Source: a phage
DNA: 64,000 nucleotides
Strand: one strand, 5' to 3'
Sequence record: PV806337.1
The notes under the pieces were generated by a model. It saw nothing but the letters and a program-made list of their open reading frames with translations, ran no database searches and was not told the DNA's origin. The first letter of the stretch is position 1. Each line of letters begins with the position of its first letter. This document shows positions 20,923 through 29,561 of the stretch, piece by piece. The position numbers and the translations under genes are program-made.

Positions 20923-20994
20923 GCCGTCCTAGTATAATTGGTATTATCAAGCCGTAACTGGTGGAAGATGTAGGTTCGAATCCTACGGTCGGTA
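20923..20994 (+). tRNA. tRNA-like gene, anticodon unresolved
   Basis: Canonical T-arm GTAGG-TTCGAAT-CCTAC followed by acceptor 3' strand; 5' acceptor pairs with one mismatch; no clean anticodon stem found by eye. Confidence 0.35.
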
Positions 20995-25201: not shown

Positions 25202-25279
25202 GGTTCTCAAGCTCATATGGTATGAGCACCCGGCTCATAACCGGAAGGTACGTAGGTTCGAATCCTCGGGGAGCCACCA
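25202..25279 (+). tRNA. tRNA with CAT anticodon (Met/fMet/Ile2 type)
   Basis: Acceptor GGTTCTC/GGGAGCC, D-stem GCTC/GAGC, anticodon loop CTCATAA, T-loop TTCGAAT with weak T-stem, CCA. Confidence 0.5.
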
Positions 25280-26737: not shown

Positions 26738-26828
26738 GTTGGATTAGTATCGTAGAGGTAGCGAAGCAGACTGTAAATCTGCCGACTCGGAAGGGTCTCG
26801 GGTGGTTCGACTCCATCATCCAACACCA
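26738..26828 (+). tRNA. tRNA-Tyr (anticodon GTA)
   Basis: Acceptor GTTGGAT/ATCCAAC, anticodon stem GCAGA/TCTGC, loop CTGTAAA, long variable arm, T-loop TTCGACT, CCA. Confidence 0.8.
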
Positions 26829-27003: not shown

Positions 27004-27078
27004 GCACCTTTAGCTGAGATGGATTAGCGCTTGCCTGAAGAGCTTGAGAGGTTGGATCGTTACCAACGGGGTGCTCCA
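27004..27078 (+). tRNA. tRNA-Phe-like (anticodon GAA), atypical
   Basis: Acceptor GCACCTT/GGGGTGC, anticodon loop CTGAAGA, non-canonical T-loop ATCGTTA, CCA; anticodon stem has two U-U mismatches. Confidence 0.45.
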
Positions 27079-28760: not shown

Positions 28761-29108
28761 ATGATTAATGCTAAAGAAGAATTGTTACTTGCCCTAAAGA
28801 ATACTAATTCTGAAGTTAAGTGTATTAAGATAGAATTCGGTTATTATGGGGATAAAGAAGTTTGGGTATTACCCGTAGGTTATACAGAAAAAGATATTGA
28901 AGATTTTCTAGATAATCTAGACTTTAAATATGATTCTGGTTTCGGCGGACAATTGCTTTATGGTAACGTATGGTTTACCGATGGAACTTGGTTAGAACGT
29001 GGTGAATATGATGGTTCTGAATGGTGGGAATATAAGACTACACCAGCAATCCCAGAAGAATGCCGAACAATTAATGGTGAAGTAGATCGTACTTTACTAT
29101 TAAATTAA
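28761..29108 (+). CDS. hypothetical protein
   Basis: ORF track 115 aa. Confidence 0.55.
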   Translation: MINAKEELLLALKNTNSEVKCIKIEFGYYGDKEVWVLPVGYTEKDIEDFLDNLDFKYDSGFGGQLLYGNVWFTDGTWLERGEYDGSEWWEYKTTPAIPEECRTINGEVDRTLLLN

Positions 29109-29230
29109 CAAAATTTCAGTGCAGAACACGGAGCTAGCAATTCGGAAGTGCTGACTCATGATAAGCTGCCTATGTACTTGCGAAGCGGTCGTGTCCAAGA
29201 CTCGGACTCTTGCACTGAAAACAATCAAAC

Positions 29231-29352
29231 ATTCTAGCGTGGTTGATGGGGAAACCAGCTTGGCGAGGGCAGAAGCTCGTTCGATTCGAGTGAAAGAATG
29301 GTTCTCGTAAGTCCGCACAAGTGATAACAGGTTCGAGTCCTGTCTAGAATGA
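29231..29352 (+). ncRNA. 122-nt tRNA-like structured RNA (acceptor-like helix, D-arm, two T-arm hairpins)
   Basis: ATTCTAG (29231-29237) pairs perfectly with CTAGAAT (29346-29352); D-arm TGGT/ACCA; T-arm hairpins GCTCG-TTCGATT-CGAGT and ACAGG-TTCGAGT-CCTGT; no CCA; no ORF. Confidence 0.3.
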
Positions 29353-29500
29353 CACTATAAAGTTTACTTATTATGTAGGTTCCGATAGACCGGCGGGTCT
29401 ATTCTGGCATTTAAGAGAGGTCTCGCAAACTTCTTTGTCAGCCGTGGGGTTGGTAGCCTCCAGGTGGCCTACACAATAAGTAAATTTATTAAAAATTCAT

Positions 29501-29529
29501 TTGCTATTCTGCTTTATTATCTGTATAAT
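29501..29529 (+). promoter_or_regulatory. T5-type promoter
   Basis: TTGCTA 29501-29506, 17 bp, TATAAT 29524-29529. Confidence 0.7.
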
Positions 29530-29561
29530 ATATTTTATAAAGTGAAGAGAAGGAAAGCAAA

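What the first reader, a model, noticed from the sequence alone, without database searches (positions are those of the whole stretch)
29110..29485. ORF-free structured segment with a 122-nt tRNA-like element and a long-range helix
No ORF is present. Positions 29231-29352 form a tRNA-like unit: a perfect 7-bp acceptor-like helix (ATTCTAG/CTAGAAT), a D-arm (TGGT/ACCA), and two canonical T-arm hairpins with TTCGATT and TTCGAGT loops, but 122 nt long and with no CCA. Further downstream, 29363-29379 (TTTACTTATTATGTAGG) pairs with 29468-29484 (CCTACACAATAAGTAAA) to close an ~90-nt domain. T5 is reported to make small stable RNAs of unknown function from its tRNA region; this could be one, or a fused or decayed tRNA.
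Basis: partly seen in the sequence, partly recalled or inferred. Interest (0 to 1): 0.65.

Follow-up and report, generated by a model that had tools for sequence, protein, structure and literature searches.

The report
T5 stable RNAs RNA2 and RNAIV
This gene-free stretch of a T5-like phage encodes two small stable RNAs already catalogued in phage T5 (RNA2, a tRNA look-alike that cannot read codons, and RNAIV); RNA2 also turns out to belong to a conserved family found in the tRNA gene clusters of many unrelated large phages, and its job is still unknown.

Summary
The window is a T5-like phage. The segment maps base for base onto two features of the T5 reference record. These are rna2 ("tRNA-like stable RNA with unknown functions", window 29230-29354) and rnaIV ("stable RNA with unknown functions", 29373-29475). 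Promoter P13a follows them. As an object it is therefore already known.

New here: RNA2 is not T5-specific. I collected 38 non-redundant relatives from T5-like phages, jumbo phages and uncultivated phages; T4-like Acinetobacter phages carry relatives too. All 38 are tRNA cloverleaves in which the 7-nt anticodon loop is replaced by a conserved module of about 55 nt. The module holds GGGY, a second canonical T-loop hairpin, a small YGG-loop hairpin and the near-invariant block CGUAANUCCGCA.

Covariation strongly supports the acceptor stem, the anticodon-position stem, the second T hairpin and the T arm. That rules out a decayed or fused tRNA.

RNAIV is a four-way-junction RNA restricted to T5 relatives. 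It appears to be excised from a long AT-rich helix. A third element at 29114-29220, closed by an 11-bp helix, is unannotated and unresolved.

Function remains inferred. My best guess is a non-decoding tRNA mimic or decoy.

The parts
29114..29220 (+). Unannotated, ORF-free element closed by an 11-bp helix (29114-29124 with 29210-29220). Possibly a third small RNA, or the 3' UTR of the upstream 115-aa ORF. Unresolved.
   Evidence: The helix is read from the sequence. The fold is not exceptional (z = -1.6). It is found in 220 phage records, all T5 relatives at 94.5% identity or more, so covariation has no power. In one phage (L008) it directly follows a tRNA 3' end. The T5 record has no annotation here.
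29230..29354 (+). RNA2 (T5 gene rna2): a tRNA-shaped stable RNA whose anticodon loop is replaced by a conserved module.
   Evidence: Coordinates were transferred from the NC_005859 annotation (97% identical, ungapped match). The family model gives 77 bits (the seed included near-identical T5-type sequences).
29231..29237 (+). Acceptor-like stem, 5' strand. It pairs with 29344-29350.
   Evidence: All 7 pairs show changes on both sides across 38 relatives, and 91% of cells are paired.
29240..29257 (+). D arm: stem TGGT/ACCA with loop TGATGGGGAA containing the GG.
   Evidence: Read from the sequence. T5-like variants show compensatory changes (CGGT/ACCG, TGGC/GCCA). Relatives carry canonical D arms such as AGCUCAGUUGGUAGAGC and align to the D arm of Rfam tRNA.
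29258..29262 (+). Stem A, at the anticodon-stem position, 5' strand GCUUG. It pairs with CAAGU at 29318-29322.
   Evidence: 5 pairs, 98% of cells paired, all with changes on both sides. The Rfam tRNA model aligns this stem as the anticodon stem in relatives.
29263..29317 (+). Conserved 55-nt module that replaces the anticodon loop. It consists of: J strand GCGA; helix C (GGGC 29267-70 with GUCC 29311-14); strand AGAAG; hairpin B; linker; hairpin S1 (AGAA 29295-98 with UUCU 29302-05, loop UGG 29299-301); junction strand CGUAA 29306-10; and GCA 29315-17.
   Evidence: Invariant or near-invariant blocks are seen in all relatives. Helix C is supported by the exclusive association of C with G and of U with A or U at its variable pair (pair 44:96). 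Hairpin S1 is supported by AU/UA/CG/GU exchange at its middle pair.
29276..29290 (+). Hairpin B: a second canonical T arm, CUCG-UUCGAUU-CGAG.
   Evidence: 4 pairs, 99% of cells paired. Three pairs show changes on both sides. The loop-closing G:C is invariant in 38 of 38, as G53:C61 is in tRNA.
29306..29317 (+). Near-invariant 12-mer CGUAAGUCCGCA; the family consensus is CGUAANUCCGCA.
   Evidence: This block was used as the search anchor, so its conservation is partly built in (see evidence against). It is present with at most two changes in every member listed.
29327..29343 (+). True T arm: ACAGG-UUCGAGU-CCUGU.
   Evidence: 5 pairs, 96% of cells paired, 4 with changes on both sides.
29363..29484 (+). 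Precursor hairpin of RNAIV. A 17-position helix (29363-29379 with 29468-29484) closes a four-way junction.
   Evidence: z = -5.1. The outer AT-rich helix is conserved even in Pectobacterium phage DU_PP_V, whose interior has diverged.
29373..29475 (+). RNAIV (T5 gene rnaIV), the mature stable RNA. It has hairpin 1 (29384-29403, GGCG loop), an arm with hairpin 2 (29404-29441, loop CUCGCAA at 29422-28) and hairpin 3 (about 29445-29462).
   Evidence: Coordinates come from the T5 annotation. 13 of 41 predicted pairs keep pairing through changes on both sides. The GGCG and CUCGCA loops are conserved with covarying stems in TrudiGerster and DU_PP_V.
29501..29529 (+). Promoter P13a (TTGCTA-17-TATAAT) of the next transcription unit. 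It marks the downstream boundary of the RNA2/RNAIV unit.
   Evidence: Consensus scan, falling inside the T5-annotated promoter P13a, which maps to window 29482-29556.

Best explanation
The segment carries the orthologues of two known phage T5 small stable RNAs, plus one unannotated upstream element.

RNA2 is a tRNA-shaped RNA that cannot decode. It keeps a full tRNA body: acceptor stem, D arm, 5-bp anticodon-position stem, short variable loop and T arm. I infer that it is cut out of the tRNA-array transcript by the ordinary tRNA-processing enzymes and is stable for the same reasons tRNAs are. In place of the anticodon loop it displays a conserved three-way-junction module of about 55 nt. The module consists of helix C, a second T-loop hairpin, a small hairpin with a YGG loop, and the single-stranded CGUAA/GCA strands.

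The tRNA body varies freely between phages, while the module is nearly invariant. So the module is the working part and the tRNA body is the scaffold.

The mechanism I commit to is a trans-acting tRNA mimic (decoy or sponge). It would occupy a conserved tRNA-binding factor without being usable or cleavable at an anticodon loop. That factor could be a tRNA-targeting defence nuclease or a tRNA-processing or tRNA-modifying enzyme.

RNAIV is a separate RNA confined to T5 relatives. It is a four-way-junction RNA released by cleavage inside its long AT-rich closing helix (RNase III-like cleavage, inferred).

My sub-confidences are as follows:
- Identity with T5 rna2 and rnaIV: about 0.97.
- RNA2 is a selected, structured, functional RNA with the fold described: about 0.85.
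- The decoy or mimic mechanism specifically: about 0.3.
For: Identity. The window is 97-100% identical to T5-like phages over 29100-29500. T5 annotates rna2, rnaIV and promoter P13a at the homologous positions.

Breadth. Relatives occur in Sugarlandvirus, Hongcheonvirus, Epseptimavirus, Serratia phage Kamaji, Acinetobacter T4-like phages 133 and Acj9, contigs of 160-360 kb, many metagenome contigs and two MAGs.

Structure.
- 92% of cells are paired, against 59% in shuffles. The covariation score is 0.83 against 0.19 in shuffles and 0.09-0.15 in slid controls. The nested model gives the same picture.
- An unbiased mutual-information scan ranks pairs of the proposed helices highest.
- The Rfam tRNA model independently aligns relatives end to end, with a 51-56-nt insert in place of the anticodon loop.

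Scaffold versus module. Acceptor sequences and discriminator bases differ freely between members. GGGY, the second T loop, YGG and CGUAANUCCGCA are invariant or nearly so.

Context. The element usually sits inside a phage tRNA array on the same strand, and is single-copy in the window. No protein family is consistently linked to it.

Background. An ~8-kb region of T5 containing tRNA-Tyr is lost in viable spontaneous deletion mutants and was named an 'anti-defence island'; its tRNA-Tyr counters a retron (bioRxiv 10.1101/2023.03.15.532788).

RNAIV. The T5-annotated ends, 29373 and 29475, lie opposite each other inside the long helix. Its hairpins covary.
Against: No experiment on function exists, and none could be run here. 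The decoy mechanism rests only on anatomy and context.

The module is invariant across phages of very different hosts. That fits a universal cellular target better than a patchily distributed defence nuclease.

A few members have no tRNA within 5-10 kb (L055, L150, L264). The Acinetobacter T4-like subgroup lacks a clear acceptor stem, so a complete tRNA body is not always required.

The structural alignment was built partly by searching for complementarity in the acceptor stem and in the 5' strand of stem A. Counts for those two helices therefore lean towards the model. Hairpin B, hairpin S1, helix C and the T arm were placed by sequence anchors only.

Members were collected with patterns containing the T-loop motif and CGTAANTCC. 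Conservation of those two blocks is therefore partly built in.

In the published fragment screen of the T5-type anti-defence island, only the fragments carrying tRNA-Tyr, ORF71/72 and rad rescued phage from the three retrons tested. I could not establish whether RNA2 lies within that deleted region.
Confidence: 0.55

Rival explanations
1. Ribosome- or translation-directed RNA, analogous to tmRNA. In this reading RNA2 receives CCA, is charged, is delivered by EF-Tu, and its bulky module acts in or near the decoding centre, for example on stalled or empty A sites.
For: RNA2 has a complete tRNA body with an intact acceptor stem and T arm. The module occupies exactly the anticodon-loop position. 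A universal target such as the ribosome would explain why the module is invariant across hosts. Phage tRNA arrays do carry tmRNA-like pieces: L144 1395-1463 scores 45 bits against Rfam tmRNA.
Against: Acceptor sequence and discriminator base are not conserved, so no single aminoacylation identity is maintained. Most members, including the window copy, do not encode CCA. ARAGORN finds no tmRNA and Rfam tmRNA gives no hit at E up to 10. There is no conserved reading frame: the T5 and KPN4 copies differ by a 1-nt indel in the module. The resemblance I noticed to tmRNA pseudoknot 1 is recalled from memory and no model-based test supports it.
Confidence: 0.1
2. Cis-acting processing or stability element only. 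In this reading the tRNA-like unit and the RNAIV hairpin serve as RNase P and RNase III 'punctuation' and as 3' protective structures for the polycistronic tRNA/ORF transcript. The excised RNAs would be by-products.
For: Both elements sit at the end of a transcription unit, just upstream of promoter P13a, and no intrinsic terminator was found. The annotated RNAIV ends lie inside a long helix, as expected of a processing site. The outer helix of RNAIV is more conserved than its interior.
Against: A punctuation role needs only a tRNA-like body. It does not explain a near-invariant 55-nt module kept in unrelated phages at varied positions within their arrays. It also does not explain the conserved GGCG and CUCGCAA loops with covarying stems in RNAIV.
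Confidence: 0.15
3. A decayed, fused or intron-containing tRNA gene. This means either a pseudogene formed from two tRNAs, or a tRNA whose 55-nt insert is spliced out to give a decoding tRNA.
For: The unit has two T-arm-like hairpins and one D arm. The Rfam tRNA model treats the insert of some relatives like an intron. The 12-mer resembles the 3' half of a tRNA-Tyr anticodon arm: window 26772-26783 reads TGTAAATCTGCC.
Against: The insert is the best-conserved part of the RNA and has its own covarying helices, which is the opposite of decay. The 5' junction strand between stem A and GGGY varies from 1 to 5 nt and has no conserved U33-like position, so no fixed 7-nt anticodon loop could be regenerated. 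The insert is far shorter than group I introns, and no intron family matched. Matches to the 12-mer with up to 3 mismatches, the level of the tRNA-Tyr resemblance, are no more frequent than chance (35 found against 43 expected).
Confidence: 0.03
4. A tRNA-scaffolded aptamer or regulator whose module binds a small molecule, or base-pairs with another RNA, rather than binding a tRNA-binding protein.
For: The module is a compact three-way junction with invariant unpaired nucleotides (CGUAA, GCA and the YRA strand), as is typical of ligand pockets.
Against: No riboswitch or sRNA family matches. Candidate pairings I examined by eye in the sequences are not maintained when one side varies. These were the RNAIV loop CUCGCAA with the RNA2 strand GCGAG, and the same loop with UUGCGA in the upstream element. 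There is no downstream expression platform.
Confidence: 0.07

Closest known systems
Phage T5 rna2 (RNA2) and rnaIV (RNAIV), annotated in NC_005859/AY543070, phage 5 AJ604531 and (rna2) BF23 AJ604530
   Same: Same genes: same order (ORF T5.067 homologue, spacer, RNA2, RNAIV, promoter P13a) and 97% identity with no gaps.
   Different: Nothing material. The records give 'unknown functions' and no structure or family. The 29114-29220 element is not annotated in them.
Canonical tRNA (Rfam RF00005)
   Same: RNA2 has a 7-bp acceptor stem, a D arm with GG, a 5-bp anticodon-position stem, a 4-5-nt variable loop and a T arm with G53:C61 and UUCRA. It lies in a tRNA array. Several relatives pass the Rfam tRNA threshold end to end.
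   Different: There is no anticodon loop; a conserved 55-nt module with a second T arm takes its place. The window copy is missed by ARAGORN and by Rfam. CCA is not encoded, although the neighbouring true tRNAs of the window do encode it.
tmRNA (SsrA)
   Same: It is a tRNA-like RNA without an anticodon, in which structured RNA replaces the anticodon end.
   Different: RNA2 has no mRNA-like reading frame and no pseudoknot ring, but does have a full D stem. Neither ARAGORN nor Rfam detects a tmRNA. The pseudoknot alternative for the module (YGG with CCR) has no covariation support, whereas the nested helix C does.
Bacterial Y RNA YrlA (Rfam RF02553), a tRNA-mimicking RNA bound by Ro60/Rsr (PMC4201824)
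   Same: It is a non-decoding RNA with tRNA-like D and T arms, also found in some phages, and is a substrate of tRNA enzymes.
   Different: In YrlA the 5' and 3' ends form the Ro-binding stem, and the stem at the acceptor position is closed by a loop (my recollection of the published structure). In RNA2 the ends form the acceptor stem. Rfam YrlA gives no hit in the window and only sub-threshold hits of about 23 bits, against a gathering score of 69, in two related loci. No Ro gene is nearby.
Phage T4 species 1 and species 2 RNAs (rnaC, rnaD)
   Same: They are small stable RNAs of unknown function encoded at the end of a phage tRNA cluster.
   Different: No sequence similarity was found: no T4-named record was among those listed for the Acj133 or T5 queries. 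They lack the second T hairpin plus CGUAANUCCGCA arrangement.
Engineered 'tRNA scaffold' for expressing recombinant RNAs in E. coli (PMC3753655; background knowledge)
   Same: The design principle is the same: a foreign structured RNA grafted onto the anticodon stem of a tRNA, so that the chimera is processed and stabilised like a tRNA.
   Different: That is a laboratory construct. RNA2 would be a natural counterpart with a conserved payload. This is an analogy of architecture, not of descent.

Membership tests
T5 RNA2 / RNAIV orthologues | Homologous sequence at the syntenic position between the T5.067 homologue and promoter P13a | tested here: met
   97.2% identity over 397 nt in one ungapped piece to NC_005859. 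The features rna2, rnaIV and P13a lie under the match.
T5 RNA2 / RNAIV orthologues | Accumulate as discrete stable RNAs in infected cells | not testable with these tools
   Stated only in the notes of the GenBank records ('stable RNA'). No expression data were available here.
Canonical tRNA (RF00005) | Cloverleaf body: 7-bp acceptor stem, D arm, 5-bp anticodon stem, T arm with T loop | tested here: met
.
Canonical tRNA (RF00005) | 7-nt anticodon loop with U33 and an anticodon | tested here: not met
   The loop is replaced by 51-56 nt. The junction strand varies from 1 to 5 nt, with no conserved U33.
Canonical tRNA (RF00005) | Detected by tRNA finders at their thresholds | tested here: not met
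   The window copy gets no ARAGORN call and no Rfam hit, even at E up to 10. Some relatives do pass (44.8-50.6 bits).
Canonical tRNA (RF00005) | 3' CCA and aminoacylation | not testable with these tools
   CCA is not encoded (GACA follows the stem). Post-transcriptional CCA addition and charging cannot be assessed here.
tmRNA | tRNA-like domain plus a tag reading frame with resume and stop codons, and pseudoknots | tested here: not met
   No ARAGORN tmRNA. No Rfam tmRNA hit. No conserved frame, given the 1-nt indel between the T5 and KPN4 copies.
tRNA with group I intron | An intron of 200 nt or more with the group I core; splicing restores a 7-nt anticodon loop | tested here: not met
   The insert is about 55 nt. 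No intron family matched. The variable 5' junction length is incompatible with a fixed restored loop.
YrlA / bacterial Y RNA | Match to RF02553; 5' and 3' ends form a Ro-binding stem; Ro60 gene nearby | tested here: not met
   No hit in the window. The ends form the acceptor stem. No recurrent neighbouring protein was found.
RNA2-like phage family (defined here) | tRNA body plus a module with GGGY, a second T-loop hairpin, a YGG hairpin and CGUAANUCCGCA at the anticodon-loop position | tested here: met
   The window copy has every block and scores 77 bits on model R1. The model's seed included near-identical T5-type sequences.

The most novel reading that the evidence does not exclude
RNA2 is the founding member of an undescribed, widespread class of phage effector RNAs. 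These would be natural 'tRNA scaffolds' that display a conserved module with a second tRNA-elbow-like element in place of the anticodon. Large virulent phages would use them to neutralise or hijack a universal tRNA-recognising component: a tRNA-targeting immune nuclease, RNase P, CCA-adding or modification enzymes, or the ribosome. The family is absent from Rfam 15. In GenBank phage records it is unannotated outside T5, BF23 and phage 5. My literature searches did not find it.
Probability: 0.35. Interest if true: 0.75.

Novelty: already known. Interest (0 to 1): 0.5.

Why it matters
The small stable RNAs of T5, like species 1 and 2 RNAs of T4, are still labelled 'unknown functions' in the reference records.

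RNA2 is not a T5 oddity. It belongs to a family spread through the tRNA arrays of many unrelated large phages, with a tRNA body that drifts and a 55-nt module that does not. This turns an old curiosity into a tractable problem. It names the nucleotides to mutate: the second T loop, YGG and CGUAANUCCGCA. It predicts how the RNA is processed. It also places the RNA in current work on phage tRNAs as counter-defence tools.

If the module targets a tRNA-binding factor, this would be a natural RNA decoy built on a tRNA scaffold.

The practical consequence for annotation is smaller but immediate. Gene callers either leave this RNA unannotated or lay 'hypothetical protein' calls over it in hundreds of phage genomes.

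Tried and rejected
1. Pseudoknot model of the module (YGG pairing with CCR of the 12-mer, recalling tmRNA PK1). It shows no two-sided covariation. The nested alternative, GGGY with NUCC, is supported by the exclusive C:G and U:A/U association. The tmRNA PK1 resemblance came from memory, and no tmRNA model hit backs it.

2. Resemblance of CGUAAAUCCGCA to the 3' half of the tRNA-Tyr anticodon arm. The phage's own tRNA-Tyr matches with 3 mismatches, and such matches are no more frequent than chance in the window (35 found against 43 expected).

3. Intron hypothesis. It was rejected because of the variable junction length and the conserved insert.

4. Helix between the purine-rich strand after GGGY and the strand after YGG (AGAA/UUCU in T5). 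It is not maintained across the family. The strand before YGG is what covaries.

5. RNA-RNA pairing of the RNAIV loop CUCGCAA with the RNA2 strand GCGAG, or with UUGCGA in the upstream element. By eye, variants on one side (GCUAG; UUGCAA/UUGCUA) are not compensated on the other.

6. Linked partner protein. All-against-all BLASTP of ORFs within 5 kb of 44 members found only homing-endonuclease-like and lineage-specific small ORFs.

7. RNAIV outside T5 relatives. A scan for its conserved outer helix returned only known T5-like loci plus AT-rich chance matches.

8. Upstream element 29114-29220. It has no Rfam hit, an unexceptional fold, and too little divergence to test.

9. T4 rnaC/rnaD as relatives. 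They show no similarity.

10. Literature searches for functional work on T5 RNA2/RNAIV, or for a description of the family, found none. The older T5 papers behind the GenBank notes did not appear in my searches of the held library.
Full report
What the window is. ARAGORN finds 21 tRNA genes on the + strand between 21.5 and 33.4 kb, and Rfam finds 23 tRNA matches. The 401 bases around the finding are 97-100% identical to more than 200 T5-like phages. The finding lies between tRNA-Lys(CUU) followed by a 115-aa ORF (28761-29108) and a small ORF followed by tRNA-Pro.

Check of the observation. Every element described is present at the stated coordinates:
- ATTCTAG 29231-37 pairs with CTAGAAT 29344-50, and C29230:G29351 adds an eighth pair.
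- The D arm is TGGT/ACCA.
- The hairpins are CTCG-TTCGATT-CGAG (29276-90) and ACAGG-TTCGAGT-CCTGT (29327-43).
- No CCA is encoded.
- A 17-position helix, 29363-79 with 29468-84, has one A/C mismatch at 29373/29474.
- Only short, overlapping ORFs of 20-72 aa exist.

The downstream domain folds far better than shuffled sequence (z = -5.1). The tRNA-like unit (z = -1.3) and the first 120 nt (z = -1.6) do not. ARAGORN calls nothing here. Rfam gives only two junk matches at E above 2, downstream of 29441, and nothing over RNA2, even with permissive filters.

What it is: two known T5 RNAs. The T5 reference record annotates three features at the homologous positions (locus coordinate + 27899 = window coordinate; the match is ungapped):
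- misc_RNA rna2, 'tRNA-like stable RNA with unknown functions', at window 29230-29354.
- misc_RNA rnaIV, 'stable RNA with unknown functions', at window 29373-29475.
- Promoter P13a, at window 29482-29556.

Phage 5 carries the same annotations, and BF23 annotates rna2. The consensus scan finds TTGCTA-17-TATAAT at 29501-29529, inside P13a, and finds no intrinsic terminator. The domain closed by the long helix is the precursor of RNAIV. The annotated RNAIV ends (29373 and 29475) face each other inside that helix. I read this as excision by a double-strand-specific nuclease such as RNase III; that is an inference. The first 120 nt (29110-29229) belong to neither RNA.

RNA2 is not confined to T5. 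BLAST with the window picked up short but strong matches in Klebsiella Sugarlandvirus phages, Pectobacterium phage DU_PP_V and the T4-like Acinetobacter phage 133. In phage 133 the match lies in an unannotated 105-nt gap between tRNA-Gly and tRNA-Cys. Searches from those copies added Acinetobacter phage Acj9, Serratia phage Kamaji, Yersinia phiR2-01 and others. The shared core is a T-loop hairpin followed by ...AUGGU..CGUAANUCCGCA.

I scanned with patterns built on that core. The scans recovered clear relatives in uncultivated viral contigs of 20-360 kb, in metagenome contigs and in two bacterial MAGs, alongside chance matches that I discarded. GenBank annotates the element only in T5, BF23 and phage 5. 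Elsewhere the match carries no feature, or a 'hypothetical protein' call overlaps it.

Anatomy of the family. I parsed each member around sequence anchors. All full members share the following, in order:
- A 7-bp acceptor stem.
- A D arm, often textbook (UAGCUCAGUUGGUAGAGC).
- A 5-bp stem at the anticodon-stem position.
- A module of 50-60 nt.
- The 3' strand of that stem.
- A 4-5-nt variable loop.
- A T arm.
- The acceptor 3' strand.

The module reads: a 1-5-nt strand (often NCGA or YUA); GGGY; a few purine-rich nucleotides; a 4-5-bp hairpin with loop UUCGAUU and an invariant G:C closing pair; a linker (often UGAAAG..); YGG; 2-6 nt; then CGUAANUCCGCA.

I submitted the structural alignment of 38 non-redundant members as an N-padded alignment, and MAFFT kept its columns (A2). 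Pair counting on it gave these results:
- 92.1% of cells are paired, against 58.8% in shuffles.
- 349 cells have changes on both sides, against 107.
- The covariation score is 0.83, against 0.19 in shuffles and 0.09-0.15 in slid controls.
- The acceptor stem has 7 of 7 pairs with two-sided changes, stem A 5 of 5, the second T hairpin 3 of 4, and the T arm 4 of 5.

An unbiased mutual-information scan over all column pairs ranks pairs of these helices highest (13 of the 13 highest-scoring pairs). It adds two further pairs. One is the middle pair of a small hairpin whose loop is YGG: AU 13, UA 13, GU 3, CG 2, other 7. The other pairs the Y of GGGY with the N of CGUAA-N-UCC: U:A 19, C:G 8, other 11 (from the member sequences these are U opposite U), so C occurs only with G.

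This second pair places UCC opposite GGG, forming helix C, so the module is a nested three-way junction. In the window it comprises helix C (29267-70 with 29311-14), T-loop hairpin B (29276-90) and hairpin S1 (29295-98 with 29302-05, loop UGG). The single strands are AGAAG, UGAA, CGUAA and GCA.

My earlier pseudoknot idea (YGG with CCR) has no two-sided support. I suspect that the UGG loop contacts the second T loop the way D-loop G18/G19 contact the T loop in tRNA. That would make a second 'elbow', but both partners are invariant, so it cannot be tested by covariation.

Independent checks and caveats. The Rfam tRNA model aligns several relatives end to end above its threshold, with 51-56 nt in place of the anticodon loop (L235 50.6 bits, L205 47.9, L092 44.8). 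This confirms the tRNA body and the position of the insert without using my alignment. A covariance model built from A2 scores the window copy at 77 bits and ordinary tRNAs of the window at 18-34 bits, and finds no second copy. The model's seed included two T5-type sequences of at least 97% identity, so the 77-bit score is partly built in.

There are three caveats. The acceptor stem and the 5' strand of stem A were located by complementarity, so their counts lean towards the model. The collection patterns included the T-loop motif and CGTAANTCC, so conservation of these blocks is partly built in. The D stem was not scored because its register varies.

Variation in the theme. The Acinetobacter T4-like subgroup (phage 133, Acj9, MAG contig L175) keeps the module, stem A and the T arm but has no convincing acceptor stem.

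Context. Most members lie within tRNA arrays on the same strand as the tRNAs, but three have no tRNA in the fetched flanks. No protein family recurs next to the element beyond homing-endonuclease-like and lineage-specific small ORFs. CCA is usually not encoded, whereas the true tRNAs flanking RNA2 in the window do encode it. Acceptor sequences and discriminator bases differ between members.

How it most likely works. Several things are shown:
- A tRNA body maintained by selection.
- A non-decoding, near-invariant module at the anticodon end.
- Residence in tRNA arrays.
- No linked protein.

The following are inferred. RNA2 is matured and stabilised like a tRNA, with RNase P cutting at 29230/31 and 3' trimming. 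The body is a scaffold and the module is the active part. The RNA acts in trans as a tRNA mimic that engages a tRNA-recognising factor without offering an anticodon loop.

Recent work frames the T5 tRNA region as counter-defence. Viable spontaneous mutants lack about 8 kb of an 'anti-defence island', and the tRNA-Tyr within it neutralises a retron (bioRxiv 10.1101/2023.03.15.532788). Phage tRNAs have also been proposed to evade anticodon nucleases (PMC10264068). I could not establish whether rna2 lies inside that deletion, and the rescuing fragments reported there carry other genes.

Against a narrow decoy role, the module is invariant across very different hosts, which points to a universal target. 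I put the mimic or decoy mechanism at about 0.3. The rivals are: a tmRNA-like ribosomal role 0.1; a purely cis processing or stability role 0.15; an aptamer or RNA-pairing regulator 0.07; a decayed, fused or intron-bearing tRNA 0.03.

RNAIV. Among T5 relatives, the closing helix, hairpin 1 (GGCG loop), the arm carrying hairpin 2 (loop CUCGCAA) and hairpin 3 are kept. This holds through compensatory changes in TrudiGerster and in DU_PP_V, whose interior sequence is largely different. RNAalifold finds 13 of 41 pairs with two-sided changes. A scan for the conserved outer helix found it only in T5-like loci. RNAIV is thus a lineage-restricted four-way-junction RNA. Its function is unknown.

The upstream element. 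Positions 29114-29124 pair with 29210-29220 (11 bp including one G:U), closing about 85 nt. The element occurs in 220 records, all at 94.5% identity or more. In one phage it directly follows a tRNA 3' end. In TrudiGerster it is preceded by a further tRNA-like piece. The few differences are not obviously compensatory, so it remains unresolved.

Comparison with known things and novelty. As objects, RNA2 and RNAIV are already known and annotated in T5, so the finding itself is not new. RNA2 fails the defining tests for a canonical tRNA (no anticodon loop), for tmRNA, for an intron-bearing tRNA and for YrlA. It shows no similarity to T4 rnaC/rnaD. Several things appear not to be recorded: the breadth of the RNA2 family, its covariation-supported fold, and the identity of its conserved module. 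No Rfam 15 family specific to it matched, it is unannotated outside three records, and my literature searches did not find it. I cannot exclude a description in papers outside the held library.

Noticed in passing
window 29114-29220: Highly conserved, ORF-free element closed by an 11-bp helix, lying between the 115-aa ORF and RNA2. The T5 record does not annotate it, and it is restricted to T5 relatives. It could be a third small RNA.
   Followed up: partly
L301 (Escherichia phage TrudiGerster) about 357-445: Between tRNA-Lys and the upstream element lies an extra piece of about 90 nt. It has a 7-bp acceptor-like pairing (GGGGTCT/AGACTCC) and ends in ACCA, but was not annotated as a tRNA. It may be another unusual tRNA-like RNA.
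   Followed up: no
L257 1967-2098 (- strand): A different long tRNA of 132 nt (47 bits on Rfam tRNA) carries an unrelated insert of about 60 nt in the anticodon loop. It lies in the same metagenomic tRNA array as an RNA2-family member. tRNA bodies carrying inserted modules may be a broader phenomenon in phage arrays.
   Followed up: no
L144 1395-1463: A 69-nt element in a phage tRNA array scores 45 bits on Rfam tmRNA (gathering score 47). It has a tmRNA-like 5' end (GGGAAUGCAUUGGUUUCGACG) and a 3' T arm followed by CCACCA. It looks like a tmRNA tRNA-like domain without the rest.
   Followed up: no
L003 1464-1568 (Acinetobacter phage 133), L046 398-500 (Acj9), L175: A T4-like subgroup of the RNA2 family keeps the module, stem A and the T arm but lacks a clear acceptor stem. 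The candidate terminal pairings overlap the CCA end or the 5' end of the neighbouring tRNAs.
   Followed up: partly
window 20923-20994, 25202-25276, 27004-27075: Rfam tRNA matches (31-40 bits) that ARAGORN does not call. They could be further non-standard tRNA-like genes of the array. The T5 record annotates other 'tRNA-like' RNAs, such as rna3 and rna2H, in this region.
   Followed up: no
L002 (phage 5) 1471-1641; L012, L017; Epseptimavirus loci L016, L027, L044: The RNA2-RNAIV junction is a hot spot for insertions. Phage 5 carries a small ORF (trn 2.10.1) there. A tRNA-Gly lies between the two RNAs in Epseptimavirus, and a homing endonuclease gene (hegB) replaces the ORF downstream of P13a in phage 5.
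   Followed up: no
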